Shown here piece by piece: positions 10,619 through 22,530 of a stretch of DNA of 64,000 nt; position 1 is the first letter of the stretch; each line of letters opens with the position of its first letter. The stretch is from assembly GCA_000002435.2 (NCBI GenBank), contig CM018790.1; one strand, given 5' to 3'. The notes beneath the pieces were generated by a model. That model had not been told where the DNA came from and did not search any database. It saw nothing but the letters and a program-made list of their open reading frames with translations. The position numbers and the translations under genes were made by a program. This stretch comes from Giardia intestinalis. Taxonomy: Eukaryota.

Positions 10619-13615
10619 TCAGGAGGACTGGGCGAGGGATTGCACGAATTGAAAATCATCAGTGCTGACGCAGTAGTGGGTGCAGCTGCTTCCGTCTGCT
10701 GCGTGCAGATTACACTCTTGTTTATAAAGTATCTGAATACAATCCCGGTGGCTGTATTGGATTGCAAGCATCAGTGCAGTGATACCCTCTGGTGTCTGCA
10801 TGCCGCTCTCTTTGTCGCACAGGATTCTGACCACGGCAGTTTGACCTCGCTGGGCAGCCACCATCAGAGCCGTGCAACCGACCTTGTCGACACACTTTGC
10901 CTCATAGTCAGCTAGAACAGCAACCGACTCGGCTGCTCCGTGTTCTGCGGCAATTATCATGGCTGTGGCTCCGGTGTACCTGTCCCGGCGCATCCCTGCT
11001 TCCTTTGGGGCCAAAAGCCTGACAACCTCGCTCTGATTATTTAGTGCTGCGTACATCAGGGCTGTCCATTGGTCTTCAGACATTTTCCCAGCCTCGTAGT
11101 CCAACAAGAGCTGCACAGTCTCTACGTGCCCCTTTTGACTTGCATACATGAGGGCAGTCACCGTGTTGCGTGCCGGTATCCCCGCCTCCTTTGATAATAG
11201 TAGCTTCACTATCTCGTGATAATTAGAGCGCGCGGCAAGAAGGAGGGCGGAGTGGCCCTTGAGGTGGAATAGACCTGCTTCTTTTGGGGCCAGGATTCGC
11301 GCAGCCTCCAAAAAACCACTATTGGCCGCAAGCAGCAAAGCAGTCGTACCGTCGTCTTTCTGCATACCAGCCTCATAAGGTTCCAAAAGCTCGACAACGG
11401 AGGCGTGTCCTTTCTGAGCCGCCATCATCAGCGCAGTCCATCCGCCCTGCTTGACTCGCTTTGCCTGGAACAAGAGCTTTCTCACTAGGCCTATGTTTCC
11501 GTGGCTGGCAGCATTCATAAGCGGCGTCTGAATTCCCTGCTTAAGGAGCTTCCCCTCAGCCTCAATGAGGCGCGTAGCTATTCCTTCATTGTTATGGAAG
11601 GTTGCCAGTATTAGCGCTGTTATCCCGTTATCCCGCTGATGCCCTGCCTCAATGTCTAGAAGCCCCTCTGCAACAGAAAAATTCTTGGCCTCCAAAGCCA
11701 GCATCAGAGCGGTAGCTCCAGCTTGCTTTCCAGATTGGACGGACATGCCACCCTCTAGTGGGGCTAGTATCTTAAGTACGTCTATGTGTCCTTTGGTAAT
11801 GGGGCTTTGTTGGGCGAGGATCATTAGGGCGGTAAAACCTTCGTTGTTGTAGCACTTCAATTGGCTCATAGCCGTCTTGACTCCAGCAACGTCACCGTTC
11901 TTTGCTGCTTCCATGAGGGTCGTAACTCCATTGTCATCGACAAGCAGCTGTTGCCGAGATGAGCTCCCAACGGACTGACGTGGAGAGGCATTTGATGCGA
12001 GGACGGACGAAGCAGATAGCTCATGTGTTAGTGCTGGAACATGCTCAACAGACGCTCTGAGCGCTATGTCTTGCGGGGATATTGGAGATTGCGTTTGTAC
12101 GCGCGATGCAACAATAAAGTGTGGCGAATGTGTAGATGCCTCTTGCTGCTCCTTTTCGCCTGAGAGACTGCTACGACCAGTAGGAGCATTCGCTCGAGCA
12201 GTTCTGAATGACTTTTGGTCCACTTCCCACGTCGAGGGTGCACCAAGCGCCTGCATTTGTTGGGGCTTGTGCGGCGTTGTATTTCTATTCCGGCTAGTAC
12301 GGCTGGAGATGCTTCGAACAGATTGCATCAATGAGGTAACAATTGGCTCGATAGATGGCCGCGCTAATTGTCTCTGTTGAATGGGGAACCATACATAAAT
12401 TTCCTTATCGCACGTGGATTTCTGAGCTCCTGGCATCCCACCGGCACGCAACTCATCGATTGTTTTTCTAGCAAGATCCAGCGCAGCTTCTAGACTCTTA
12501 ATTTTTTGTTCATATTCCATATTCAATCGGTCCTTATCTGATCGTGTACCTAATATATTTCGCTGCAATTGCGCAAATAGATTAGTTCCTTCTCTAAATG
12601 ATTCAGACATTGCATCTGAGTAACGCTTCAGCTCTAGTTGAGTTTGCCTCACTGATTCCCTGACCTTCTTGAGCTCATCTACTACTAAATCCCAAGCAAT
12701 ACTACGGGCAGCGCTCTGTTCTACGAGAACAGTTATAACTTTGACAAGGTCTTCTGGAGAGGCAATGGAAGTGGGGGTGATAGTGTATGGTAATTTGCTC
12801 AGTTCCAACTGGATTTGCCTGAGTATGGAGCCCAGGGCACAGTCCGTTGTTTGCTGGCGTGCATATTCATCTGCAATTGTGGACTTGAGCTTGTCCTCCT
12901 GCTCTTCAAAGTATGCTATCTTCTCCTGAAGCTTCTGTATGGTCTGCTCCTGCTCTCTATTGACTGCTATTATCCTGTCGAGATCGTTATTGATCATCTC
13001 CACGCACTCGTCATTGATGCTCGCACTGAGGCTTACGGAGGCAGAGTTGGTTTGACTAACAGGAGCACCTCTGCTTCCAGCTTCAGTCTTGAGATAAGAA
13101 CGCATCTCCACATTGTTAGTGACAGTCAGGGAGTAGTAGTATGCTGTTTGTATCTGCTTGGGAGTGAACTTATCGGACTCAATGAGAATTTGCAGGTTAC
13201 GTTGCTTGGAGCCCAAAATTGCATACTCAAGCGCTGTCTTCCAATAAACGTCGTTTTCATTACCGAGATACGCAAGAAGCATTGTAACAAACACAGTATC
13301 GCAATCAGAGGCGGCTAGCATTAAGGCTGTCCGGCCATCAGATGTCGTTAAATCATATTCAAGTGGTGCCAGGCATTTCGCTACAGAGTAGTTCTGCGCC
13401 TGTACAGCCAGTAAAAGGGCCGTGGTGTTCGTTACTATCCTGGATTCAGCCTCCAACAAAAACGTGACAACGTCTAGCCGCCCGTACTTTGCTGCGCACA
13501 TGAGCGCAGTCATCTCTTGCTTGTTTTTCTGGCCCTTCATCATCTGGAAATTTTGCTTGATGAACTCGAGATCCCCCCGCTTGGCAGCTTTAAACCACTG
13601 CAGAGAGTCACCCAT
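10619..13615 (-). CDS. ankyrin-repeat protein with a central coiled coil, Giardia 'Protein 21.1'-like
   Basis: About 20 ANK repeats: TALMxAAxxGHxxxVxxLL motifs occur many times. The track start (GTG 13753) overlaps the upstream gene. The first in-frame ATG is at 13613-13615 (CAT verified), preceded by aaaatctaaaattaATG and lying 18 nt downstream of the neighbouring gene's stop. Stop TGA verified at 10619-10621. Confidence 0.85.
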   Translation of the reverse strand: MGDSLQWFKAAKRGDLEFIKQNFQMMKGQKNKQEMTALMCAAKYGRLDVVTFLLEAESRIVTNTTALLLAVQAQNYSVAKCLAPLEYDLTTSDGRTALMLAASDCDTVFVTMLLAYLGNENDVYWKTALEYAILGSKQRNLQILIESDKFTPKQIQTAYYYSLTVTNNVEMRSYLKTEAGSRGAPVSQTNSASVSLSASINDECVEMINNDLDRIIAVNREQEQTIQKLQEKIAYFEEQEDKLKSTIADEYARQQTTDCALGSILRQIQLELSKLPYTITPTSIASPEDLVKVITVLVEQSAARSIAWDLVVDELKKVRESVRQTQLELKRYSDAMSESFREGTNLFAQLQRNILGTRSDKDRLNMEYEQKIKSLEAALDLARKTIDELRAGGMPGAQKSTCDKEIYVWFPIQQRQLARPSIEPIVTSLMQSVRSISSRTSRNRNTTPHKPQQMQALGAPSTWEVDQKSFRTARANAPTGRSSLSGEKEQQEASTHSPHFIVASRVQTQSPISPQDIALRASVEHVPALTHELSASSVLASNASPRQSVGSSSRQQLLVDDNGVTTLMEAAKNGDVAGVKTAMSQLKCYNNEGFTALMILAQQSPITKGHIDVLKILAPLEGGMSVQSGKQAGATALMLALEAKNFSVAEGLLDIEAGHQRDNGITALILATFHNNEGIATRLIEAEGKLLKQGIQTPLMNAASHGNIGLVRKLLFQAKRVKQGGWTALMMAAQKGHASVVELLEPYEAGMQKDDGTTALLLAANSGFLEAARILAPKEAGLFHLKGHSALLLAARSNYHEIVKLLLSKEAGIPARNTVTALMYASQKGHVETVQLLLDYEAGKMSEDQWTALMYAALNNQSEVVRLLAPKEAGMRRDRYTGATAMIIAAEHGAAESVAVLADYEAKCVDKVGCTALMVAAQRGQTAVVRILCDKESGMQTPEGITALMLAIQYSHRDCIQILYKQECNLHAADGSSCTHYCVSTDDFQFVQSLAQSS

Positions 13616-13632
13616 TAATTTTAGATTTTCGG

Positions 13633-16600
13633 TTACATTCTTGTCATAGAGCCAACTTTCGCTGTCAGGGGACGGATGTTGACGACAATATCTTTTTCGA
13701 TAGTGCTGGGCAGACGCAATTTTCCGGCGCTGCTGACACGAAATCCGCGGCACGGTATGAACCGTTCTGCCTCGTCACGAAGAGTCCCACGAACATCATA
13801 CGGATCCTTAATGATGCGGTCCGGTGATTGAACTGCAAGGGGCTTGGCCATGATAGAAATCGGCTCTAGGCCTAGATCAGCCTTTTGTAGAAGCAAAGAT
13901 GCGCCGGAGTCATCTGCTTCGTTATCTGCGGCCACAGCTGTAATCTTGGAGATAGACTCGCGTGCAGAAGATGCTATGGCACTCCGAGGTCTCTTTGAGA
14001 GAAGGGATTTGGAGGCAGCCGGGCTTGTAACTATGGAGCTGGTAACAGATTGGCGGCCATATCTATCGCGAGTTGTTTGCTTCGGTGTGTTTACCGATGC
14101 CTTACGTGTTATGCTTATCACCATATTTCTTGTGGCCGGAGAAGGAACTGCTACTACCATGTCGTCAACTGATCTGAAGAGAGCCGAGCCACCATAATAA
14201 GGACGAGCATCACCATGTGAGCTGCTTGCTAAAAGCTCCTGATTCTGGCGACCAATCCGTACATCTGCCACCTTCATCAATTTGCCTGGTCGTGATGTTC
14301 CCGAGTCTGGCCTTCCAGGAAGTGTCTCAGATAGCTTCCTAGTAGAAACAGGTGTAACACGCATGGAGGAGGAAGCGTCATTGGTTGTCTTCAGCGCAAC
14401 AGGACGTTCAGGATGAAGGGTACGTGTCCTTATTCTTGCACTGCTCCCTATGCGTACCATTTGTGCTTCATAAGTAGCCTTGGAGGACAATAACCGAGGT
14501 TGCTGGTTTGTCGTGCCGCCAAACCCAGATGATATGAACGTACTGCCCCTCGGATTGCCCACTGCTCGAATTGCTTGAGGCTCTGACACATCACTGATAG
14601 CACTACAACTATTTTGTGGCTCTACAAATCCACTGATTGATTCGCTAAGGGGCTCACTCTGCACCGCTGAAGGGACTCTGCTTGCTTTCTGCTTAGGTTT
14701 TTCTAGAAGCAGAGAGGCCTTTTCAAGCTTCTCATTGTACCTAGAAGTATTCCGTGGCAACAGATTATCCCGAGAAGATTCTAGTCTTGCTTTGCTGTAC
14801 CCGAGCTTGGCTAAGTTTTCGGCTGTTGTGCTATTAACAGATGTAATTTGTTCGACTAGCTTTGAAATGGCAGCAGATCTTATCCGAGTTGGACGACTTG
14901 CCATTTTAGAAGTTGTCGATTGCACAGCTGATGCACTGAGCATGGATCCATGAGAGTGTTTAGACTCTAGGTTGTGTGCCGACTCCGATAGTGCTGTCTT
15001 TCCTCTAGATACCGACAAGTGATCTGCTCTTGATGGTGTACCACTGAAGGAGGTGTAGAGCTCTATGTTAGAACTCTTCATGCTACTCTTCTCTGGGGTC
15101 TGGACCACGTCCAGTTGATCTAGCGTGCCTGATTTGTCCAAGTCTTGCGTTAACAACAGAGATTTGGTGCAGCTTGCTACGTGATTAAACTGATCCTTGA
15201 CGGCTTCAAATTGGATTGGAAGGGTGCCATTAGTACATAATTGTCTAGATGCAGAAATGTCGGTAACAATAGAGTGGTTGAGTGCAGATAAGCCTAAGCT
15301 ATTATTGTCCTGGTCTGCCCTAAAAGTGTAAGATATGGAGGTTGAGGAAAGAAATTGTCTGGGTGTGAACCTCTCAAACTTGTTGTAAGGTTTCTGTTTT
15401 TTCTGCTGGGAATCGGATTTCGTGGATTGAGACACCGCAGACGTAGCTAATGCACTTGTGTAACTGCCAGTACGTTTGTGACCTTGTTCTGTACTGGCAA
15501 CAGAGGATCCTTGGCCGGCAAACATGCGCCAGTTCCAGCTTACTGCCTTATCCAGTTGTCTACACTCATTGGAAGCAGTCTCATATCTCTCTTCATTATC
15601 ATCGAGTACCGTGTCTGCCCATTTCACCTCCGATCCTTTGCCCTCACGTGAGTTATTCTCTATGGCCTTTTCTTCTTGGGACCTTCCACTCATGGAGCAG
15701 GTCTTTCTAGGGACGGTGGGATAGCTATCAAGATGCACGCTTCTTTTTTGTGCTGCGTCTATTGTGAGCTTCTTGTAGTTTGCTAAGATGACATCTTTCT
15801 CTCCCGTTGGGTCTATCCCCAATTCACCTTCTTCTAATATGGGGAAATTTGCATCCAGCTCGTAATCGTCCAAAACCATCTTTGCTTCATAATCGACTGG
15901 CAGTTCTGACAGCTGATCTTTATTCACTGATGCCTGCAAGCTGGTATTGAGCCTTTTGGCTTCTTTGAGAAGCTTATCAATGTGAGCAAGTTCCTTGATC
16001 TCTGATGGCTTGGTGCTCAGCTCTAACTCTCGATACGAATCAAGCATATGATAATTTGCATGTGTGGCTAAGTTGATGCTACTATGTACATCCTCATATA
16101 ACTCTGGGTGTTCTAAATCTATTACATGAACGACTGTTTGTCGGGGCTCAAGGGGGTACAATGGGCTTTCAGGATGGCTGATGTCAACGCATGGCTTTTG
16201 GGTGTCACTGCGTGAAACAGCAACCCGCTCCACGCCTTTCAGTGCCGCCATATCTGTTAAATTTGATGAGTCATCAGAACCGTGAACCTTAGGGCATTGA
16301 GCATGCTCAATCATAGTACTGAAGTCACCTGGTCGCGGAGTCTCTTGTCGTGAATACAGGGTTTCCATGGTTGGCGTCGCCGCCCGATCATCAGTTTTAT
16401 CAGTATCTATTTCTATATAATTGGCAAGAGTGTCGGACTCATCAGCTGGGAGCCTGGGCTTTTTGTTCATGGCAGCCGCAATGGCTTCGTCGAGGCGCTT
16501 TTGAAGGGGTATCACGGCAGTGTCTATAAAAGTCTGCGGTGGTAGATCTTCGAAATCCGCAGGAATATTCAACGATGAGCGAGGCTTGGCCGCCAGAGCA

Positions 16601-19326
16601 GAAAGAGACGCTTGCTGAGAAAGCTCTTGCTTGACTGTTTCTCTAAAGTCGTGCATACGTTCATACAGGCTTTGATCTCTTGACGTCCTGTCTGTATTAG
16701 AGGTCCGTCGTGCTGAGCTATCCTTCTGTCCGCTTCCTCTCCGCAATACGATTTTGTCACGCTGGCTTAAGTCATCACTGTACATGCTGGGCTCTCCAGC
16801 CAGTGATCCCAACAGATCCGCCGACTGTTCAAGGTGCTTTACCATGTCCATGCGAGGAATCACGAGCGATGTCTCCAAATCACTCCGTTGCAGCTGAGAA
16901 TTGATAAGACACGAGATGCTCTGCACATTGCTGGACTCTTCTGGTAGATCAACGACATCCTCCATGTCTTCCTTCTTGCCGGAGTACTCTAAACTGCCGT
17001 GTATGGGATATGCATCTAGTTGAGAACATTGCGGCGGAGTTGGATGCGCAAGCGTCTGGAGCCTCTCTTCTATGTCCTGGACATTTCTAACGTTCTGCTC
17101 TGCAGGCGCTATGGCCTCCGAAGATTCGTCAAGGAGCTGCTCTGCTGGTTGCTTCTGAAGATGCTGGTTAGTAGTGTATGGTACAGTAGCCTTGACAGTC
17201 ATCAACGGAGCAGAGTTTTCAGTAGAGAACGAGCTTTTATCTATGGCGAACCCGCTATAAACCTTCTTTAAGTCCACAATATGCTCTGAGATAGAGGTAG
17301 CTTTAATGTCTCTCTCACCCAGTTCCTTGTTCCTGCTGGCAATGGCACGCTGGTAAGAAGTAATGACTGATCCCTTAAATCCCTGGCGTTCGGGGACTAT
17401 AACCCTACGATCTAATCTGCTAACGGAATCAGTAACAGTGTCCAGTTGCTCGCTGTGGCAAATATCAGAAGCTGATCTAACCAGTTCCCTCACTGCACCC
17501 AGGTTATCAGTTTGAGGAGTGGGTACAGGACGCCCTGTTGAATGAGGCGTTCGCCAGATACGTCTTACTTCTATTGGGCCTTCGCTAATATCAAGAGTTG
17601 AATGACTAGCAGCGACATGCGTTGTCCGTGGCTGAAATGATGCGGGAAATTTCTTATCACTGTGCAATATTTGGCGAAAGTTGGACTCTTCAGAAACTGT
17701 AATTGCAGGTGCAGGTGCATTTCTCTGATCTTGGGATTGAACCTTAGAACGGGGTTTTTGATGAGGCTTAGACCTGGTAGCGCTTCGGGAAGCTGAAAGT
17801 TTTGTAAGGCTTGCGTTGAGGCTGCTTTCTATGGCAGATGATTGCGTACTGTGTTGAGAGCATATGGTTTCGAAGATTTCTTCGTCTAGTATAACCTCAC
17901 CGTGATCCTCTGCTGTGTCGTTTGCAAGAGTAGACATGGACACATTCTGACTCTGCTTATCAAGACGAGCTTCTGTTGAAACACGAGAAGGTGTCTTTTT
18001 CTTCCCAATAACTGCATAGATATTTCCCTCTGAGTCAATGCTTAATTCATCCGTTGTGGAGGTCAAGCGTTCTGACTTAGCATGGGAATAGCTGGAATCC
18101 CTGGAGCCTGTAGCAGAGCTGTATTTCTTCTCAAGAGCATCGTTATTACAGGGCACATAAGCGTGGTGTGTCACTGGCATCAAGGAAGGAGCAGTATGAG
18201 TCTTTGAATGGATTGAATTGCCGGTTGGATCATCGTCTGACTTGAGAGCAACCATATCCACATGCACAGTATCATGTTGCGATGGCTCCTGGTCTAGCAT
18301 AGTTTTGGATTCCGGTTTAACTATATTCTCGTCTTGCTGGATGGCTGAAGCGGCCACGGTATCAGTGAAGGGTTGAACACTTAAATTCATTGGTTGTTCG
18401 CAACTAATAGTGACAGGATGATGTCCTTGAGTAATGCTGTTATATGTATCGCCAAAGCAACACCTACTTTGTGTCCAGTTGGTTGTAAATTCATGAAGCC
18501 TGTCTTGAAGGTCTCGCACACTAGTGATACTTGTTCGACGCATGGATGCTGGCCTGGAAGTTGTTTTGCCGTGCTGGATGGGAAGGCTTGTGTTGTGTGG
18601 AGAAAGAAGCCCGCGGGTTGGTATGGAATGCGCAGAGGCAGGCCGCCTGCGCCTATATCTAGAAAGTACATCCTCAGTCATGCCGTGGGTTGCTGCCTCC
18701 AGGTCCATGCCCCTGTTGATGAAGTTAATGGACTCATTGAGCTCTTTCTGGGCCTTTTCATTGCTGAATAGACTGAAGTCGACCCTCATATTAGAGTCTA
18801 ACAAGTCGCGCTGGGCCTCTGGAAGAAGCTCATAGAAATTGTTGTTTCGCAACAGCTGCATGTCTCTAATAGTATACTTTCCCATGGTATTGTCAAGTCC
18901 GGTGCCAGCGCTTACTGGTCGCTTTCGCACCAAGTGCTCTAGCCTCCGGTACGTTTCACTTGACTTGTCGTTGACGCCGTCCTTGAGAAGGAGCTGCCCA
19001 TCCTTATCTATTAGAGATGCTCGTATGAACTTTAGGTCATCAACCATCGTCTCTGTGTCTAGAGTGTTTTGATCTGCATCCCCCATCTCCTTGTAGTCGT
19101 TTCTGGAAGAGCCTAGGGGCTTTGCTGATCCAGGCCGCTTGACTAATGTTCCTGGATGTGCGTTGCTGGAGCGGGATATCATTGCATTGCGTTGCAGGTT
19201 GACCTGGCTCAGCAGAGAACTATGCATAAACTGTGATGCTTCTGCTTCGGTCAAAAAGTCCCCTTGGTAGTACACGTGTATATTGCTCAACATGTTTGGA
19301 GAGGGGATAAGGTGCTGGGATCGCAT
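13633..19326 (-). CDS. giant (≈1,900 aa) Ser/Thr-rich low-complexity protein, hypothetical
   Basis: The track start at 19353 is TTG. The first in-frame ATG is at 19324-19326 (verified). Stop TAA at 13633-13635 verified. Composition is dominated by S, T, P, Q, D with no recognisable domain. Confidence 0.7.
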   Translation of the reverse strand: MRSQHLIPSPNMLSNIHVYYQGDFLTEAEASQFMHSSLLSQVNLQRNAMISRSSNAHPGTLVKRPGSAKPLGSSRNDYKEMGDADQNTLDTETMVDDLKFIRASLIDKDGQLLLKDGVNDKSSETYRRLEHLVRKRPVSAGTGLDNTMGKYTIRDMQLLRNNNFYELLPEAQRDLLDSNMRVDFSLFSNEKAQKELNESINFINRGMDLEAATHGMTEDVLSRYRRRRPASAHSIPTRGLLSPHNTSLPIQHGKTTSRPASMRRTSITSVRDLQDRLHEFTTNWTQSRCCFGDTYNSITQGHHPVTISCEQPMNLSVQPFTDTVAASAIQQDENIVKPESKTMLDQEPSQHDTVHVDMVALKSDDDPTGNSIHSKTHTAPSLMPVTHHAYVPCNNDALEKKYSSATGSRDSSYSHAKSERLTSTTDELSIDSEGNIYAVIGKKKTPSRVSTEARLDKQSQNVSMSTLANDTAEDHGEVILDEEIFETICSQHSTQSSAIESSLNASLTKLSASRSATRSKPHQKPRSKVQSQDQRNAPAPAITVSEESNFRQILHSDKKFPASFQPRTTHVAASHSTLDISEGPIEVRRIWRTPHSTGRPVPTPQTDNLGAVRELVRSASDICHSEQLDTVTDSVSRLDRRVIVPERQGFKGSVITSYQRAIASRNKELGERDIKATSISEHIVDLKKVYSGFAIDKSSFSTENSAPLMTVKATVPYTTNQHLQKQPAEQLLDESSEAIAPAEQNVRNVQDIEERLQTLAHPTPPQCSQLDAYPIHGSLEYSGKKEDMEDVVDLPEESSNVQSISCLINSQLQRSDLETSLVIPRMDMVKHLEQSADLLGSLAGEPSMYSDDLSQRDKIVLRRGSGQKDSSARRTSNTDRTSRDQSLYERMHDFRETVKQELSQQASLSALAAKPRSSLNIPADFEDLPPQTFIDTAVIPLQKRLDEAIAAAMNKKPRLPADESDTLANYIEIDTDKTDDRAATPTMETLYSRQETPRPGDFSTMIEHAQCPKVHGSDDSSNLTDMAALKGVERVAVSRSDTQKPCVDISHPESPLYPLEPRQTVVHVIDLEHPELYEDVHSSINLATHANYHMLDSYRELELSTKPSEIKELAHIDKLLKEAKRLNTSLQASVNKDQLSELPVDYEAKMVLDDYELDANFPILEEGELGIDPTGEKDVILANYKKLTIDAAQKRSVHLDSYPTVPRKTCSMSGRSQEEKAIENNSREGKGSEVKWADTVLDDNEERYETASNECRQLDKAVSWNWRMFAGQGSSVASTEQGHKRTGSYTSALATSAVSQSTKSDSQQKKQKPYNKFERFTPRQFLSSTSISYTFRADQDNNSLGLSALNHSIVTDISASRQLCTNGTLPIQFEAVKDQFNHVASCTKSLLLTQDLDKSGTLDQLDVVQTPEKSSMKSSNIELYTSFSGTPSRADHLSVSRGKTALSESAHNLESKHSHGSMLSASAVQSTTSKMASRPTRIRSAAISKLVEQITSVNSTTAENLAKLGYSKARLESSRDNLLPRNTSRYNEKLEKASLLLEKPKQKASRVPSAVQSEPLSESISGFVEPQNSCSAISDVSEPQAIRAVGNPRGSTFISSGFGGTTNQQPRLLSSKATYEAQMVRIGSSARIRTRTLHPERPVALKTTNDASSSMRVTPVSTRKLSETLPGRPDSGTSRPGKLMKVADVRIGRQNQELLASSSHGDARPYYGGSALFRSVDDMVVAVPSPATRNMVISITRKASVNTPKQTTRDRYGRQSVTSSIVTSPAASKSLLSKRPRSAIASSARESISKITAVAADNEADDSGASLLLQKADLGLEPISIMAKPLAVQSPDRIIKDPYDVRGTLRDEAERFIPCRGFRVSSAGKLRLPSTIEKDIVVNIRPLTAKVGSMTRM

Positions 19327-19844
19327 CAAGGAGGAATTTCGATGATCTAGCAATTTTTGAGTGATGATTCACTTCGCCGTCGGCTGGCTCCAGCGCTATG
19401 CTACCGGGCCTCCACATGCAGGCCTGGCCCAGGAGTCACACGAATGAGCTCACTGCTGGCCATGTTCAGAGCCAGAAGAGCCGGTGCTTGACTTCGAGGC
19501 CATCATTTGTAGGGAGAGGATCTGCCCCTGCATGCTTTCTTCCACCCACCCTCAGCTGGTGTGGTGGCATACCATTTGCATATGCACAGGGTGCTTGCAG
19601 AAGAGAAGGCGTCAGAGAAAAATGGCCCGACTGCGTACTGGGCCTCTTTTGGTCTCTATTCACAAGGGATCACAGGCAGGAAGTATAGGTCAGTTGCTAC
19701 GCATCCACTCGCGTACGTTATAGCACGATTCCAGTCGCAGAGGAAGACCTGCAATATTCACACTAGCTTCACCGTAACGGTGCAGTGCATAGAATGTAGT
19801 TGGGAAACTTGTGTTATCCACACTTGTATTTGATTGCGGAGTCA

Positions 19845-20531
19845 ATGTTTGCAGGGCTTATCTTCGCAAGCCTCGTTCTGCAGTTGGCTGCGGCGACACG
19901 GCCAGCAGAAAGGAGCAGATCTGACACCCCGTGCACGGAGTCGGGGAACGACACGTGCCAGACGTGCAGCGGAAGCGGCAGCAATGAGATCTGCCTCACG
20001 TGTAAGAACAACGATCACTTCCTGACGACAAACAAGAAGGGCTGCAAAGCCGCCTGCGACGCGACGGGGGAGATAGAGACCCCGGGCGCTAACCCGAAGG
20101 CCTGCAAGTGCGACGACGCCAGCGGGTACCAGCTCCAGGGCGACGGGACGTGCGCCAAGGGGCAGGACACCCCGTGCACGGAGTCGGGGAACGACACGTG
20201 CCAGACGTGCAGCGGAAGCGGCAGCAATGAGATCTGCCTCACGTGTAAGAACAACGATCACTTCCTGACGACAAACAAGAAGGGCTGCAAAGCCGCCTGC
20301 GACGCGACGGGGGAGATAGAGACCCCGGGCGCTAACCCGAAGGCCTGCAAGTGCGACGACGCCAGCGGGTACCAGCTCCAGGGCGACGGGACGTGCGCAG
20401 TTTCTAACACAAACAAGAGTAGCGGCCTTTCTACCGGTGCCATCGCAGGCATCGCTGTGGCCGCTGTTATTGTCGTGGGGGGCCTCGTCGGATTCCTTTG
20501 CTGGTGGTTCCTCTGCCGCGGTAAGGCGTAG
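19845..20531 (+). CDS. variant-specific surface protein (VSP), small (228 aa), containing two identical 81-aa repeats
   Basis: The track start (TTG 19800) is rejected. ATG at 19845 gives a signal peptide MFAGLIFASLVLQLAAA. Multiple CXXC motifs are present (CQTC, CLTC, CKC). C-terminal TM GAIAGIAVAAVIVVGGLVGFLCWWFL is followed by the VSP-defining tail CRGKA and stop TAG at 20529-20531. AGTAAAC follows 20 nt downstream. Confidence 0.85.
   Translation: MFAGLIFASLVLQLAAATRPAERSRSDTPCTESGNDTCQTCSGSGSNEICLTCKNNDHFLTTNKKGCKAACDATGEIETPGANPKACKCDDASGYQLQGDGTCAKGQDTPCTESGNDTCQTCSGSGSNEICLTCKNNDHFLTTNKKGCKAACDATGEIETPGANPKACKCDDASGYQLQGDGTCAVSNTNKSSGLSTGAIAGIAVAAVIVVGGLVGFLCWWFLCRGKA
19923..20408 (+). 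repeat. perfect tandem duplication, 2 x 243 bp, inside the VSP coding region
   Basis: gacaccccgtgcacggagtcgggg… begins at 19923 and again at 20166. The ~235 bp I compared by eye are identical. The period is 243 bp, a multiple of 3. This explains the mirror-image spurious minus-strand ORFs in the track. Confidence 0.9.
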
Positions 20532-20550
20532 ACTCAGCTGTGTACTTAGG

Positions 20551-20557
20551 TAGTAAA
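20551..20557 (+). promoter_or_regulatory. putative polyadenylation signal AGTAAAC (Giardia AGTRAAY class) for the VSP gene
   Basis: Sequence match 20 nt after the VSP stop codon. Confidence 0.5.
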
Positions 20558-20826
20558 CGCGTTCACGTGCTGCGTCGCGGACCCAGGAGCCCTTATCAGT
20601 ATTACCGTTTGCTCATTGGCGCTGTTGAGTTATTTTGGTCCGCCTCTATGTCAGATGTGGCCAAGAAAGAACAGATGCTCTTCGCCTCGTAAAGCAGTCA
20701 CCAATGCAATATGCATGATACAGTAGCAAGGACGGGCTTATATTCACAATAATACGTAGTAAGCAGTGGGCGGTATTACTTGCCAGCATTTTCTTTCGTT
20801 GAGTAAATCTTCGTTCAACTTCAAAA

Positions 20827-22530
20827 ATGGATCCCAGTTACTCCAGTTATTCCACTTATTCCAGCTACTCCAGCTACTCTAGCTATTCCTATAGCTTTGT
20901 AGATGATCAGGATGACTATCCAAATCCGGTGACTACAGCCACTCAGCCCTTTCATGTTGCATCGTCTCCTCAAGCGCATTACATTGCTCCAGCGCCTGAG
21001 AGTCCCAAGAGGGAAGACAAGAAGACATCCCCGCTTGCTGAGAAATTGTCGCCAAAACAGAAGAGGACTAGCCCTGGTAAGAGTGGATTTGAGTTCGATA
21101 CTAACTCTCTCAATTTCTTCTCAGCCCAAACGGCGGCGGCCGTTTCTGCGGCTGTTTCTGCAGCGATAAATCACCAGATCAACCAGAATATACTATTAGC
21201 ACCTTCAACATCGGCAGTAGCGCAGCCTCCCCCGATCTTGTCGCAACAGGCCTCTGTCGACACAGCCCCTGACACAGCTCACCAAGAACAATCATTACCA
21301 GATGCTGCTCAGCCGCCCACCACCGTCGATTCCGGGGAGAAGGCAGTGGACACATACACTATCTATTCCCCAAATCGCGCTAAGAATGCAACGTCAGAAG
21401 ACTTCGTACTTATTTCACCAGCGCAGTCGCGCCACGTCCTACGTCAGGCAGCTAAAGAGCAATCATCACCATCTGAAAACTCAATTGAGAAGACAAACCT
21501 CGCTTTGGCAGAGTTGAAAGATAAGTATATGTCGCTTTCCGCCGAATTCAGAGACTACAAGCTCAAGAAGGAGAGTGAAATTAAGGATCTGATGGCACAT
21601 GAAGCAGAGTTGCGGCAAGAGGCCCGTATTTATCAACGTGATCTACAAAAGTTAGAAAAGGATTATGCTTCAGTGATAGCAAAATTGGCCGACAAAGAAG
21701 ACAAGATTGTAGAGCTGAAGGGTGCCCTGAAGAAACTGGAGAGTACGCTCCAGCAAAAACCCCCTTTTGACATGGCTCCATCTAGAGAACAACCCACTCA
21801 GCAAGGATACAATAGAAAAGAAGTGTCTCAGCAGAAGGAAAACTATTCTCCCCCCGTGGCCCAATCCGCTGCAGTGCCTTACAAGCCAGTTGATAGCATA
21901 AGCAAAATTTTCGGTCCCACTTATGCTGAGAGTAACCCGGTAGATTCAGTCAAGCACAACCCGGCTGGTAAGGAGCCAGACCACACATTAGAACCAAAAG
22001 CATCTCATCATCCTCCAGATCCTCCCCTGGCTACTTCCAACGATGTTCCGATCATGTCCTTTGAGGAATTCCTGAGGCAACGAGCACGCAATGCTGCAAT
22101 AGAAGAGCTACAGCAGCGCGACACACAGGCCAAGAGGGCCATGGATGCCAAGATAGCTTCTCTGCAGGAACAGCTAGGATCTCTACTTACTGACGCGCAA
22201 CCCGATCATGCTACTGCACAACCTGAGGCGACATTTAGTGAAGGCGGAGAGAAGGCGTCTCACACCAAGACGACTTTCACGCTAGAGGATGTGGACAAGA
22301 CAGATCCTAATTACAAGCTGCTACAGACCATGGAGACAGACTACACAGCTATGTGTCAGCAGTTGATGCTTAATCGTGATGAGCTAGCTAATCTTGAAAA
22401 CCGCAGTGGAAAGCGCACACACAAAGAAATGATGCGCATGCGGTTTCTTGAGGCGCAGATAAGCAAACTGGATAGCGAGGCAAACCAGCTCCGCTCCAGG
22501 CTGCGAGCATTGGCCAAAGCTAAAAATTGA
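20827..22530 (+). CDS. hypothetical protein (567 aa): N-terminal Ser-Tyr repeat, Q/A/P-rich middle, C-terminal coiled coil
   Basis: ATG at 20827 verified, after cttcgttcaacttcaaaaATG. N-terminus MDPSYSSYSTYSSYSSYSSYSYS is encoded by a 9-bp tandem repeat. The C-terminal ~250 aa are heptad-rich. Confidence 0.7.
   Translation: MDPSYSSYSTYSSYSSYSSYSYSFVDDQDDYPNPVTTATQPFHVASSPQAHYIAPAPESPKREDKKTSPLAEKLSPKQKRTSPGKSGFEFDTNSLNFFSAQTAAAVSAAVSAAINHQINQNILLAPSTSAVAQPPPILSQQASVDTAPDTAHQEQSLPDAAQPPTTVDSGEKAVDTYTIYSPNRAKNATSEDFVLISPAQSRHVLRQAAKEQSSPSENSIEKTNLALAELKDKYMSLSAEFRDYKLKKESEIKDLMAHEAELRQEARIYQRDLQKLEKDYASVIAKLADKEDKIVELKGALKKLESTLQQKPPFDMAPSREQPTQQGYNRKEVSQQKENYSPPVAQSAAVPYKPVDSISKIFGPTYAESNPVDSVKHNPAGKEPDHTLEPKASHHPPDPPLATSNDVPIMSFEEFLRQRARNAAIEELQQRDTQAKRAMDAKIASLQEQLGSLLTDAQPDHATAQPEATFSEGGEKASHTKTTFTLEDVDKTDPNYKLLQTMETDYTAMCQQLMLNRDELANLENRSGKRTHKEMMRMRFLEAQISKLDSEANQLRSRLRALAKAKN

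What the first reader, a model, noticed from the sequence alone, without database searches (positions are those of the whole stretch)
19845..20531. Compact VSP gene carrying a perfect 243-bp in-frame tandem duplication
The protein has a signal peptide, CXXC-rich ectodomain, TM helix and the invariant CRGKA tail, which is diagnostic of Giardia variant-specific surface proteins. Its ectodomain is essentially two identical 81-aa modules. The two DNA copies (19923-20165 and 20166-20408) look identical at every position I compared. This implies a very recent unequal-crossover or replication-slippage event, or ongoing gene conversion. Perfect intragenic repeats of this kind are a route to rapid size and antigenic variation of VSPs. 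The gene is unusually short for a VSP and lacks an obvious GGCY motif.
Basis: partly seen in the sequence, partly recalled or inferred. Interest (0 to 1): 0.6.

Follow-up and report, generated by a model that had tools for sequence, protein, structure and literature searches.

The report
Known Giardia VSP with repeated module
This is an already annotated surface-antigen (VSP) gene of the Giardia reference strain WB, and its two identical 81-residue modules are the homogenised remnant of an older repeat array whose copy number differs between isolates, which is an ordinary, well-known behaviour of this gene family.

Summary
The ORF at 19845-20531 (+) is real. It is exactly the protein KAE8302436.1 / XP_001703858.1, gene GL50803_0015400, vsp266 of Adam et al. 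2010, in Giardia intestinalis WB C6.

It has every VSP hallmark: Pfam PF03302, CRGKA tail, CAATGTT initiator and the extended VSP poly(A) signal.

The repeat is real but is 233 perfect bases at period 243 (19923-20155 = 20166-20398).

It is not a fresh duplication. The syntenic gene of isolate DH (assemblage A2) carries three 243-bp modules in the same register with a homologous linker. Modules differ by 0-5/233 within an isolate and 33-36/233 between isolates. That pattern indicates an old array kept uniform by unequal recombination or gene conversion.

Copy number varies. More than 20 WB-like short-read assemblies break exactly k-1 bases into the repeat, which implies at least 2 modules. At least three read straight through a single module. 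A 147-aa form (vsp34) is also listed for WB.

Short length and absence of GGCY are not unusual for VSPs. Tandem-repeat VSPs with copy-number variation have been known since 1994. The only small novelty is that two published catalogues did not flag this gene's repeat. Low interest.

The parts
19843..19849 (+). Candidate VSP initiator element CAatgTT around the start codon
   Evidence: The sequence is CAATGTT at 19843-19849. Adam 2010 defines PyAatgTT as the candidate Inr, and its table lists vsp266 with CAATGTT.
19845..20531 (+). Complete VSP coding sequence: 228 aa plus stop, gene GL50803_0015400 / vsp266
   Evidence: The protein is an exact match to KAE8302436.1 / XP_001703858.1 / A8C0R2, annotated 'VSP'.
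19845..19895 (+). N-terminal hydrophobic leader MFAGLIFASLVLQLAAA (presumed signal peptide)
   Evidence: Kyte-Doolittle hydropathy peak at residue 1 and a modelled helix at 3-18. The cleavage site is inferred, not computed.
19923..20155 (+). Module copy 1, perfect part (233 nt; aa 27-104 plus 2 nt; 10 Cys, 2 CXXC)
20156..20165 (+). 10-nt inter-module linker CAAGGGGCAG (encodes part of AKGQ). It is homologous to the DH linker CAAGGCGCCG and is not derived from either flank.
20166..20398 (+). Module copy 2, identical to copy 1 at all 233 positions
20399..20432 (+). Membrane-proximal segment (A)VSNTNKSSGLS. The 3' region conserved among VSPs begins here.
   Evidence: One-module short-read contigs branch at 20434/20435.
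20433..20513 (+). Transmembrane segment TGAIAGIAVAAVIVVGGLVGFLCWWFL
   Evidence: Hydropathy above 2 over aa 193-206 windows, a modelled helix at 205-224, and invariant columns in the alignment of 58 VSPs.
20514..20531 (+). CRGKA cytoplasmic tail and TAG stop
   Evidence: This is the only CRGKA-ending ORF in the window.
20543..20562 (+). Extended VSP polyadenylation signal TACTTAGGTAGTAAACGCGT (AGTAAA at 20552-20557)
   Evidence: The same 20-mer is listed for GL50803_0015400 in the supplement of Rodriguez-Walker 2022. That paper reports the motif as almost exclusive to VSPs and pVSPs, 323 of 327 hits.

Best explanation
The feature is the annotated variant-specific surface protein gene GL50803_0015400 (vsp266) on the 1.54-Mb chromosome of Giardia intestinalis WB C6, between GL50803_0017401 and GL50803_0011328.

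Its ectodomain is a short array of an 81-residue, 10-cysteine module. The array is old. The syntenic gene in the A2 isolate DH has three modules with the same 243-bp period, register and linker.

The modules are kept identical within each lineage by unequal homologous recombination or gene conversion between copies (concerted evolution). Between lineages they diverge quickly. Because the unit is 81 codons, every gain or loss stays in frame. This produces 1-, 2- and 3-module alleles that change the length and epitope valency of the coat protein.

Shown here: gene identity, repeat structure, orthologous array, within- versus between-lineage divergence, and 1-module versus at-least-2-module assemblies.

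Inferred: the recombination mechanism, surface expression, and any antigenic consequence.
For: Identity:
- Pfam VSP E = 7e-18.
- Exact match to KAE8302436.1 / XP_001703858.1.
- The neighbouring ORFs are exact WB proteins.
- vsp266 in Adam 2010 has the same length, mass (23.3 kDa), 22 Cys, 4 CXXC and CAATGTT.

Repeat: 233/233 identical at period 243.

Old array:
- DH contig AHGT01000024.1 has, next to the 17401 orthologue and in the same orientation, a 588-aa VSP with the same leader and 3.0 copies of a 243-bp unit at 99% identity.
- The linker is GTGCGCCAAGGCGCCG in DH and GTGCGCCAAGGGGCAG in WB.

Concerted evolution:
- WB copies differ by 0/233 and DH copies by 2-5/233, whereas WB and DH copies differ by 33-36/233. 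The upstream flank differs by only 22/568.
- Module dN/dS is about 0.9-1.0 with dS about 0.17. The neighbouring gene has dN/dS 0.16 with dS 0.05.

Copy-number variation:
- Logan k=31 contigs from more than 20 WB-identical samples end at 19952, exactly 30 nt into the repeat.
- Contigs from SRR10209741, SRR10662889 and SRR10662879 run from the flank through one module straight into AGTTTCTAAC.
- vsp34 (147 aa, 15.0 kDa, 12 Cys, 2 CXXC, chromosome 2, no gene id) matches the one-module protein in every listed descriptor.

Generality:
- Seven other homologues have 100%-identical internal modules of 36-88 aa. One of them was checked at DNA level and has 285 perfect nt at period 264.
- Adam 2010 reports 30 tandem-repeat VSPs and allelic copy-number variation.
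Against: - The copy-number inference rests on where de Bruijn-graph contigs break, not on reads. Sample identities are unknown.
- The 3' end and downstream flank of the Logan contig L001 differ from the window. That part may be a chimeric walk through the conserved VSP 3' region.
- The DH assembly is inconsistent at this locus. Contig 24 leaves synteny after the VSP, and contig 78 starts inside a 97.6%-identical VSP 3' part. One-to-one orthology of the whole gene is therefore not proven.
- Independent duplication at identical boundaries in two lineages is improbable but not formally excluded.
- No direct evidence here that the protein reaches the surface. A supplementary expression table of Rodriguez-Walker 2022 (file 8, columns not identified) lists values of about 6-176.
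Confidence: 0.8

Rival explanations
1. A very recent, one-step de novo tandem duplication (replication slippage or unequal crossover) of a single-module gene in the WB lineage.
For: There are no differences in 233 nt between the copies. A single-module form with identical sequence exists.
Against: - A one-step duplication of flank-R-tail would make the junction out of the present flanks. The 10-nt junction matches neither flank, with 9/10 mismatches to the 3' side.
- The junction is instead homologous to the linker of the DH array, which has the same period and register.
- The one-module form is derivable from the two-module form by simple recombination between the repeats, but the reverse is not possible.
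Confidence: 0.1
2. The copy number of 2 is an assembly artefact. Either a single module was wrongly expanded or a longer array was collapsed.
For: Perfect repeats are error-prone to assemble. Adam 2010 warns that repeat numbers are approximate. A 147-aa form exists in one Logan contig and as vsp34.
Against: - The same 228-aa protein carries accessions from both annotation generations of WB, the XP_0017… series at unchanged version .1 and the KAE83… series. That these correspond to the 2007 Sanger assembly and the later long-read chromosome-scale assembly is from my own knowledge, not a tool result.
- More than 20 independent short-read assemblies break exactly k-1 nt into the repeat, as expected if the linker-to-repeat junction exists in the reads.
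- The 476-bp array is shorter than a Sanger or long read. An array longer than 2 is not excluded by the graph evidence alone.
Confidence: 0.04
3. The WB gene is a decaying remnant: a truncated derivative of a long VSP that is not used as a coat antigen. On this view the repeat has no functional meaning.
For: The DH counterpart continues for about 300 more ectodomain residues. The WB form has no GGCY and only 4 CXXC. Its module evolves with dN/dS of about 1. A supplementary expression table of Rodriguez-Walker 2022 (file 8, columns not identified) lists modest values.
Against: - The ORF is intact, with leader, TM, CRGKA, Inr and extended poly(A) signal.
- All copy-number forms stay in frame.
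- Rodriguez-Walker 2022 class it among the 136 complete VSPs.
- Many small clade III VSPs with the same architecture are conserved across assemblages.
- dN/dS near 1 is also what diversifying selection on an antigen gives.
Confidence: 0.12

Closest known systems
Tandem-repeat VSPs of WB: vspA6/CRP170 with its low-copy relative A6-S1, vspC5 and CRP136 (Adam 2010 and the references it cites)
   Same: - In-frame tandem repeats make up much of the ectodomain.
- Copies are near-identical.
- Copy number differs between alleles, related genes and isolates.
- They share the leader, TM, CRGKA and Inr.
   Different: Those have 105-201-bp units in about 20 or more copies and are large proteins. This gene has a 243-bp unit in only about 2 copies and a 228-aa product.
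Small two-module clade III VSPs: vsp128 (GL50803_112207, TR216 x2, 205 aa, apparently P0016) and vsp51 (GL50803_112693, TR207, 258 aa)
   Same: The architecture is the same: leader, 2-3 perfect copies of a module of about 70-80 aa with 10 Cys, then TM-CRGKA. They share about 40% identity with this protein.
   Different: The module sequence and period differ. Those genes are flagged as tandem-repeat genes in Adam 2010, whereas vsp266 is not.
DH (assemblage A2) VSP next to DHA2_152667 on AHGT01000024.1
   Same: - The 5' flank is syntenic at 96% identity.
- The leader is the same.
- The 243-bp module, register and AK-linker are the same.
   Different: - It has three modules instead of two.
- Its modules are about 15% diverged from the WB modules.
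- It is followed by about 300 aa of typical long-VSP ectodomain.
- Its 3' flank in that contig is not syntenic.
vsp97 / GL50803_10562 (XP_001706456.1), the closest WB paralogue
   Same: It has a single module of the same type and an identical C-terminal 40 residues, and is 67% identical.
   Different: It has one module only and lies at a different locus. Its annotated N-terminus is extended upstream of the MFAKLIF leader.

Membership tests
Giardia variant-specific surface protein (VSP, Pfam PF03302) | Profile match above the curated threshold | tested here: met
   PF03302 at 65.1 bits against a cut-off of 31.4, E = 7.3e-18, covering aa 110-228. All 183 database homologues are VSPs.
Giardia variant-specific surface protein (VSP, Pfam PF03302) | Invariant C-terminal cytoplasmic pentapeptide CRGKA preceded by a single conserved TM segment | tested here: met
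   The protein ends ...GLVGFLCWWFLCRGKA*. There is a hydropathy peak, and these columns are invariant in the 58-sequence alignment.
Giardia variant-specific surface protein (VSP, Pfam PF03302) | N-terminal signal peptide | tested here: inconclusive
   The hydrophobic leader MFAGLIFASLVLQLAAA is typical of VSPs. No signal-peptide predictor is available here. Rodriguez-Walker 2022 required a predicted SP for their 136 complete VSPs, and this gene is in that list.
Giardia variant-specific surface protein (VSP, Pfam PF03302) | Cysteine-rich ectodomain with multiple CXXC motifs | tested here: met
   22 Cys (9.6%) and 4 CXXC. The published range for VSPs starts at 2 CXXC.
Giardia variant-specific surface protein (VSP, Pfam PF03302) | GGCY motif (frequent but not universal) | tested here: not met
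   GGCY is absent. It is not defining: 83% (Adam 2010) and 117/136 (Rodriguez-Walker 2022) of VSPs have it.
Giardia variant-specific surface protein (VSP, Pfam PF03302) | VSP-type gene signals: PyAatgTT initiator and extended poly(A) signal ACTYAGRTAGTRAAY | tested here: met
   CAATGTT at 19843-19849 and ACTTAGGTAGTAAAC at 20544-20558. Both are listed for this gene in published tables. The degenerate form of the consensus is from my own knowledge.
Giardia variant-specific surface protein (VSP, Pfam PF03302) | Surface coat localisation and mutually exclusive, switching expression | not testable with these tools
   Only indirect evidence is available. A supplementary expression table lists non-zero values for this gene.
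Tandem-repeat-containing VSP subclass | In-frame, near-identical tandem repeats within the ectodomain | tested here: met
   Period 243 nt (81 codons), 1.96 copies, 233/233 identical.
Tandem-repeat-containing VSP subclass | Repeat copy number varies between alleles or isolates | tested here: met
   There are one-module contigs in at least 3 samples, at least 2 modules in more than 20 samples, and 3 modules in DH. The evidence is indirect (assembly-graph breakpoints), with no read-level data.

The most novel reading that the evidence does not exclude
Within the clonal WB C6 line, the four genome copies are heterozygous for one- and two-module alleles. This would explain why the WB catalogue of Adam 2010 lists both vsp34 (147 aa) and vsp266 (228 aa).

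The locus would then change size at a measurable rate by recombination between the two perfect 233-bp repeats. It would be a very small natural reporter for mitotic or inter-nuclear recombination and concerted evolution in a tetraploid organism with no observed sexual cycle (both descriptors from my own knowledge), with module divergence driven by diversifying selection.
Probability: 0.3. Interest if true: 0.35.

Novelty: already known. Interest (0 to 1): 0.2.

Why it matters
It matters little beyond bookkeeping. The gene is annotated and the phenomenon is textbook for VSPs: in-frame tandem repeats, copy-number variation and concerted evolution.

There are two modest points of value.

1. Both published WB VSP catalogues list this gene without flagging its repeat. 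Their counts of 30 and 36 repeat-containing VSPs are therefore slight underestimates.
2. The locus offers a compact, PCR-sized example (444, 687 or 930-bp ORFs) of an array that is 1, 2 or 3 modules long in closely related assemblage A parasites. This could serve as a simple marker for WB sublines or for measuring intragenic recombination.

Tried and rejected
- **Exact-product look-up of the 228-aa protein** in the gene-position index found nothing. The cluster look-up did find it.
- **Literature searches** for GL50803_15400, vsp266 and the SRA run ids returned nothing. The Be-2 / WB comparison paper and the supplement of the nanopore structural-variant paper do not mention this gene.
- **The downstream part of L001** (after window 20454) matches nothing in the window or in the other loci. 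I treat it as unreliable or chimeric rather than as evidence of a second locus.
- **The 27-aa stretch shared identically with P0005** (NKKGCKAACDATGEIETPGANPKACKC) looked like recent gene conversion. It carries synonymous differences at DNA level, with 75% nt identity overall, so that idea was dropped.
- **Structure.** The AlphaFold2 model has mean pLDDT 70.6 and pTM 0.39. Foldseek against PDB gave no significant match; the best was E = 0.02. The weak hits are all disulphide-rich EGF, furin-like or TNFR repeats (Pfs25, HER2, R-spondin). This is suggestive only.
- **The apparent 8/9 match** between the linker and the sequence upstream of copy 1 requires a 4-nt out-of-frame gap. I judged it coincidental.
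- **The antisense ORF 19842-20261 (139 aa)** is a by-product of the GC-rich repeat and was not pursued.

Full report
**What is in the sequence**

The + strand carries an ORF from the ATG at 19845 to the TAG at 20529-20531, encoding 228 aa. The product has these features:
- It starts with a hydrophobic leader, MFAGLIFASLVLQLAAA.
- It contains 22 cysteines (9.6%) with four CXXC motifs.
- It has one strongly hydrophobic segment near the C-terminus and ends in CRGKA.

Tandem Repeats Finder reports one array at 19923-20398: period 243, 2.0 copies, 100% matches, score 952. A base-by-base comparison gives 19923-20155 identical to 20166-20398 at all 233 positions. The next 10 positions differ at 9. 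The linker has no counterpart after copy 2. At protein level 78 of 81 residues match. The ORF is 62% G+C against 49% for the window.

**What it is**

The protein matches Pfam PF03302 (Giardia VSP) at 65.1 bits against a cut-off of 31.4. All 183 database homologues are Giardia VSPs. Five neighbouring ORFs are exact matches to proteins of Giardia intestinalis WB clone C6 on a 1,539,535-bp chromosome. The 228-aa product is exactly KAE8302436.1 / XP_001703858.1 / UniProt A8C0R2, annotated "VSP".

The gene lies between GL50803_0017401 (KAE8302435.1) and GL50803_0011328 (KAE8302437.1). Rodriguez-Walker et al. 2022 (bioRxiv 10.1101/2022.03.07.483299) list it as GL50803_0015400, chromosome 2, 687 nt, among their 136 complete VSPs. 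In Adam et al. 2010 (PMC2996952) it is vsp266: clade III, gene 15400, 228 aa, 23.3 kDa, 22 Cys, 4 CXXC, CAATGTT. My own calculation gives 23.27 kDa.

The gene signals typical of VSPs are present:
- the candidate initiator CAatgTT at 19843-19849;
- the extended poly(A) signal TACTTAGGTAGTAAACGCGT at 20543-20562.

It is the only CRGKA-ending ORF in the window.

**Is it unusual for a VSP?**

It is not.
- Published WB VSP genes range from 222 to 6777 bp, and clade III holds many proteins of 74-330 aa.
- GGCY is missing from 17% and 14% of complete VSPs in the two surveys.
- Thirty (Adam 2010) or 36 (Rodriguez-Walker 2022) WB VSPs carry tandem repeats of 105-516 bp in 2 to more than 20 copies. Allelic copy-number differences are documented for vspA6 and vspC5.

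Among the 120 best homologues here, seven others contain 100%-identical internal modules of 36-88 aa. For one of them (P0004, contig L011) the DNA is also perfect, with 285 nt at period 264.

One small curiosity remains. Neither catalogue flags this gene's repeat. The Features column is blank in Adam 2010, and all 30 repeat columns are empty in S2 of Rodriguez-Walker 2022.

**Origin of the repeat**

A one-step duplication of a single-module gene would build the junction from the present flanks. The 10-nt junction matches neither flank.

The explanation comes from the A2 isolate DH. Next to the orthologue of 17401, in the same orientation, contig AHGT01000024.1 encodes a 588-aa VSP. It has the same start context (TCAATGTTT) and leader (MFTGLIFASLVLQLAAATRPAEKSRS). 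It carries 3.0 copies of a 243-bp unit at 99% identity, in the same register as WB. Its linker, GTGCGCCAAGGCGCCG, is homologous to the WB linker, GTGCGCCAAGGGGCAG.

The divergence figures are as follows.

| Comparison | Differences |
|---|---|
| WB copy 1 vs copy 2 | 0/233 |
| DH copies among themselves | 2-5/233 |
| WB copies vs DH copies | 33-36/233 (about 15%) |
| Upstream flank, WB vs DH | 22/568 (3.9%) |

Between WB and DH the module has dS of about 0.17 and dN/dS of about 0.9-1.0. The neighbouring gene 17401 has dS 0.05 and dN/dS 0.16.

This is the classical signature of an array that predates the A1/A2 split. It is homogenised within each lineage by unequal recombination or gene conversion, and it evolves fast between lineages. 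The perfect identity reflects a recent homogenising event, not a recent birth of the duplication.

Two metagenome-assembled relatives (L012, MEGAHIT k141; L013, SPAdes) are 96.5-97% identical to WB. Their contigs end 144 and 58 nt into the module (window 20066 and 19980). That is roughly k-1 for L012's k of 141; for L013 it would fit a k of about 55, which I assume from SPAdes defaults rather than read from the record. These breaks suggest that the module is repeated there too.

**Copy-number variation**

The best database hit is a 147-aa protein (P0001). It is identical to the window protein except that it has one module. Its Logan contig (SRR10662879) is 100% identical to window 19099-20155 and then continues directly with the sequence that follows copy 2.

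I recovered Logan (k=31) contigs carrying the 17401 gene and compared where they end.
- L016-L022, one of which is seen in "20 or more" samples, all stop at window 19952. That is exactly 30 nt (k-1) into the repeat. This is the expected break if a second path, linker into repeat, enters there.
- L015 (SRR10209741) and L024 (SRR10662889) run without a break from the flank through one module into AGTTTCTAAC..., translating to ...GDGTCAVSNTNKSSGLS.

So at least three WB-identical samples appear to have one module, and most have at least two.

In addition, Adam 2010 lists an un-numbered chromosome-2 gene, vsp34: 147 aa, 15.0 kDa, 12 Cys, 2 CXXC, CAATGTT. Every descriptor equals that of the one-module protein, for which I calculate 15.01 kDa and 12 Cys.

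In the original XP numbering the two flanking genes are consecutive (XP_001708633 and XP_001708632). The 228-aa VSP has an unrelated number, XP_001703858. This fits a scenario in which the earlier WB assembly held the one-module form at the chromosomal locus and the two-module form on a separate small contig. That last step is inference.

The one-module form is what recombination between the two perfect 233-bp copies would yield.

**Caveats**

- The graph argument is indirect, and the sample identities are unknown.
- The 3' end of L001 beyond 20454 differs at synonymous sites, and its downstream flank is unrelated to the window. It is probably a chimeric walk through the conserved VSP 3' region.
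- In DH, contig 24 leaves synteny right after the VSP. Contig 78, which carries the 11328 orthologue and the WB-like 3' flank, begins inside a VSP 3' part that is only 97.6% identical. Whether WB's short gene arose by deleting about 1 kb of a DH-like long gene, or DH has two related genes here, is unresolved.
- The AlphaFold2 model is of moderate confidence (pLDDT 70.6). It has no significant PDB neighbour. The weak hits are EGF, furin-like or TNFR disulphide-rich repeats.

**How it most likely works**

As a VSP, the protein would be one of the alternative coat antigens of the trophozoite. This rests on family knowledge and was not tested here.

Its exposed part is essentially the module array. 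The unit is 81 codons and the copies share 233 perfect bases. Homologous misalignment can therefore add or remove whole modules in frame and keeps the copies identical. This changes protein length and epitope valency. Adam 2010 notes that VSP repeats can be immunodominant.

A supplementary expression table lists non-zero values for the gene: about 6-12 in seven columns and 65-176 in seven others. I did not read the column headings.

**Verdict**

The gene and the phenomenon are already known. The "recent duplication" reading should be replaced by concerted evolution of an old, copy-number-variable array. Interest is low.

Noticed in passing
window 20834-20889 (5' end of GL50803_0011328, ORF 20827-22530 +): There is a 9-bp tandem repeat encoding (S/T)YS units (MDPSYSSYSTYSSYSSYSSYSYS...; TRF). 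Cluster members from other samples differ here. One 565-aa form lacks one SYS unit, and others swap S and T. This is a small coding microsatellite polymorphism.
   Followed up: partly
L014 (DH contig AHGT01000024.1) 1743-3554 and L003 (AHGT01000078.1) 1-466: The two DH contigs both end or continue in a VSP C-terminal part that is 97.6% identical, but they have different downstream flanks. Either there are two related VSPs or there is a misjoin at this locus in the DH assembly. The WB gene combines the 5' part of one with the 3' flank of the other.
   Followed up: partly
L001 1114-1764 (Logan SRR10662879 contig): After 56 nt shared with the window downstream of the module, the contig switches to a VSP 3' end. 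That end codes the same amino acids with 15 nucleotide differences and is followed by an unrelated GC-rich flank. It is either a chimeric assembly through the conserved VSP 3' region or a real 3'-end exchange.
   Followed up: partly
window 19842-20261 (- strand): A 139-aa antisense ORF spans the repeat, with two further antisense ORFs of 64-79 aa. It looks like a by-product of the GC-rich, stop-poor repeat rather than a gene.
   Followed up: no
window 19845-20531 vs published catalogues: GL50803_0015400 / vsp266 is listed without a tandem-repeat flag both in Adam 2010 Additional file 1 and in Rodriguez-Walker 2022 S2 table. Other two-copy repeats (TR216 x2, TR207 x2) are flagged in Adam 2010.
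   Followed up: yes
window 10619-13753 and 13633-19353 (- strand): The mechanical ORFs of the ankyrin-repeat gene and GL50803_0017401 overlap by about 120 nt. This is only because the ORF lister extends to upstream GTG or TTG codons. The annotated 17401 protein starts at the ATG at 19326 (1897 aa), and the Logan gene calls start at 19293 (1886 aa).
   Followed up: partly
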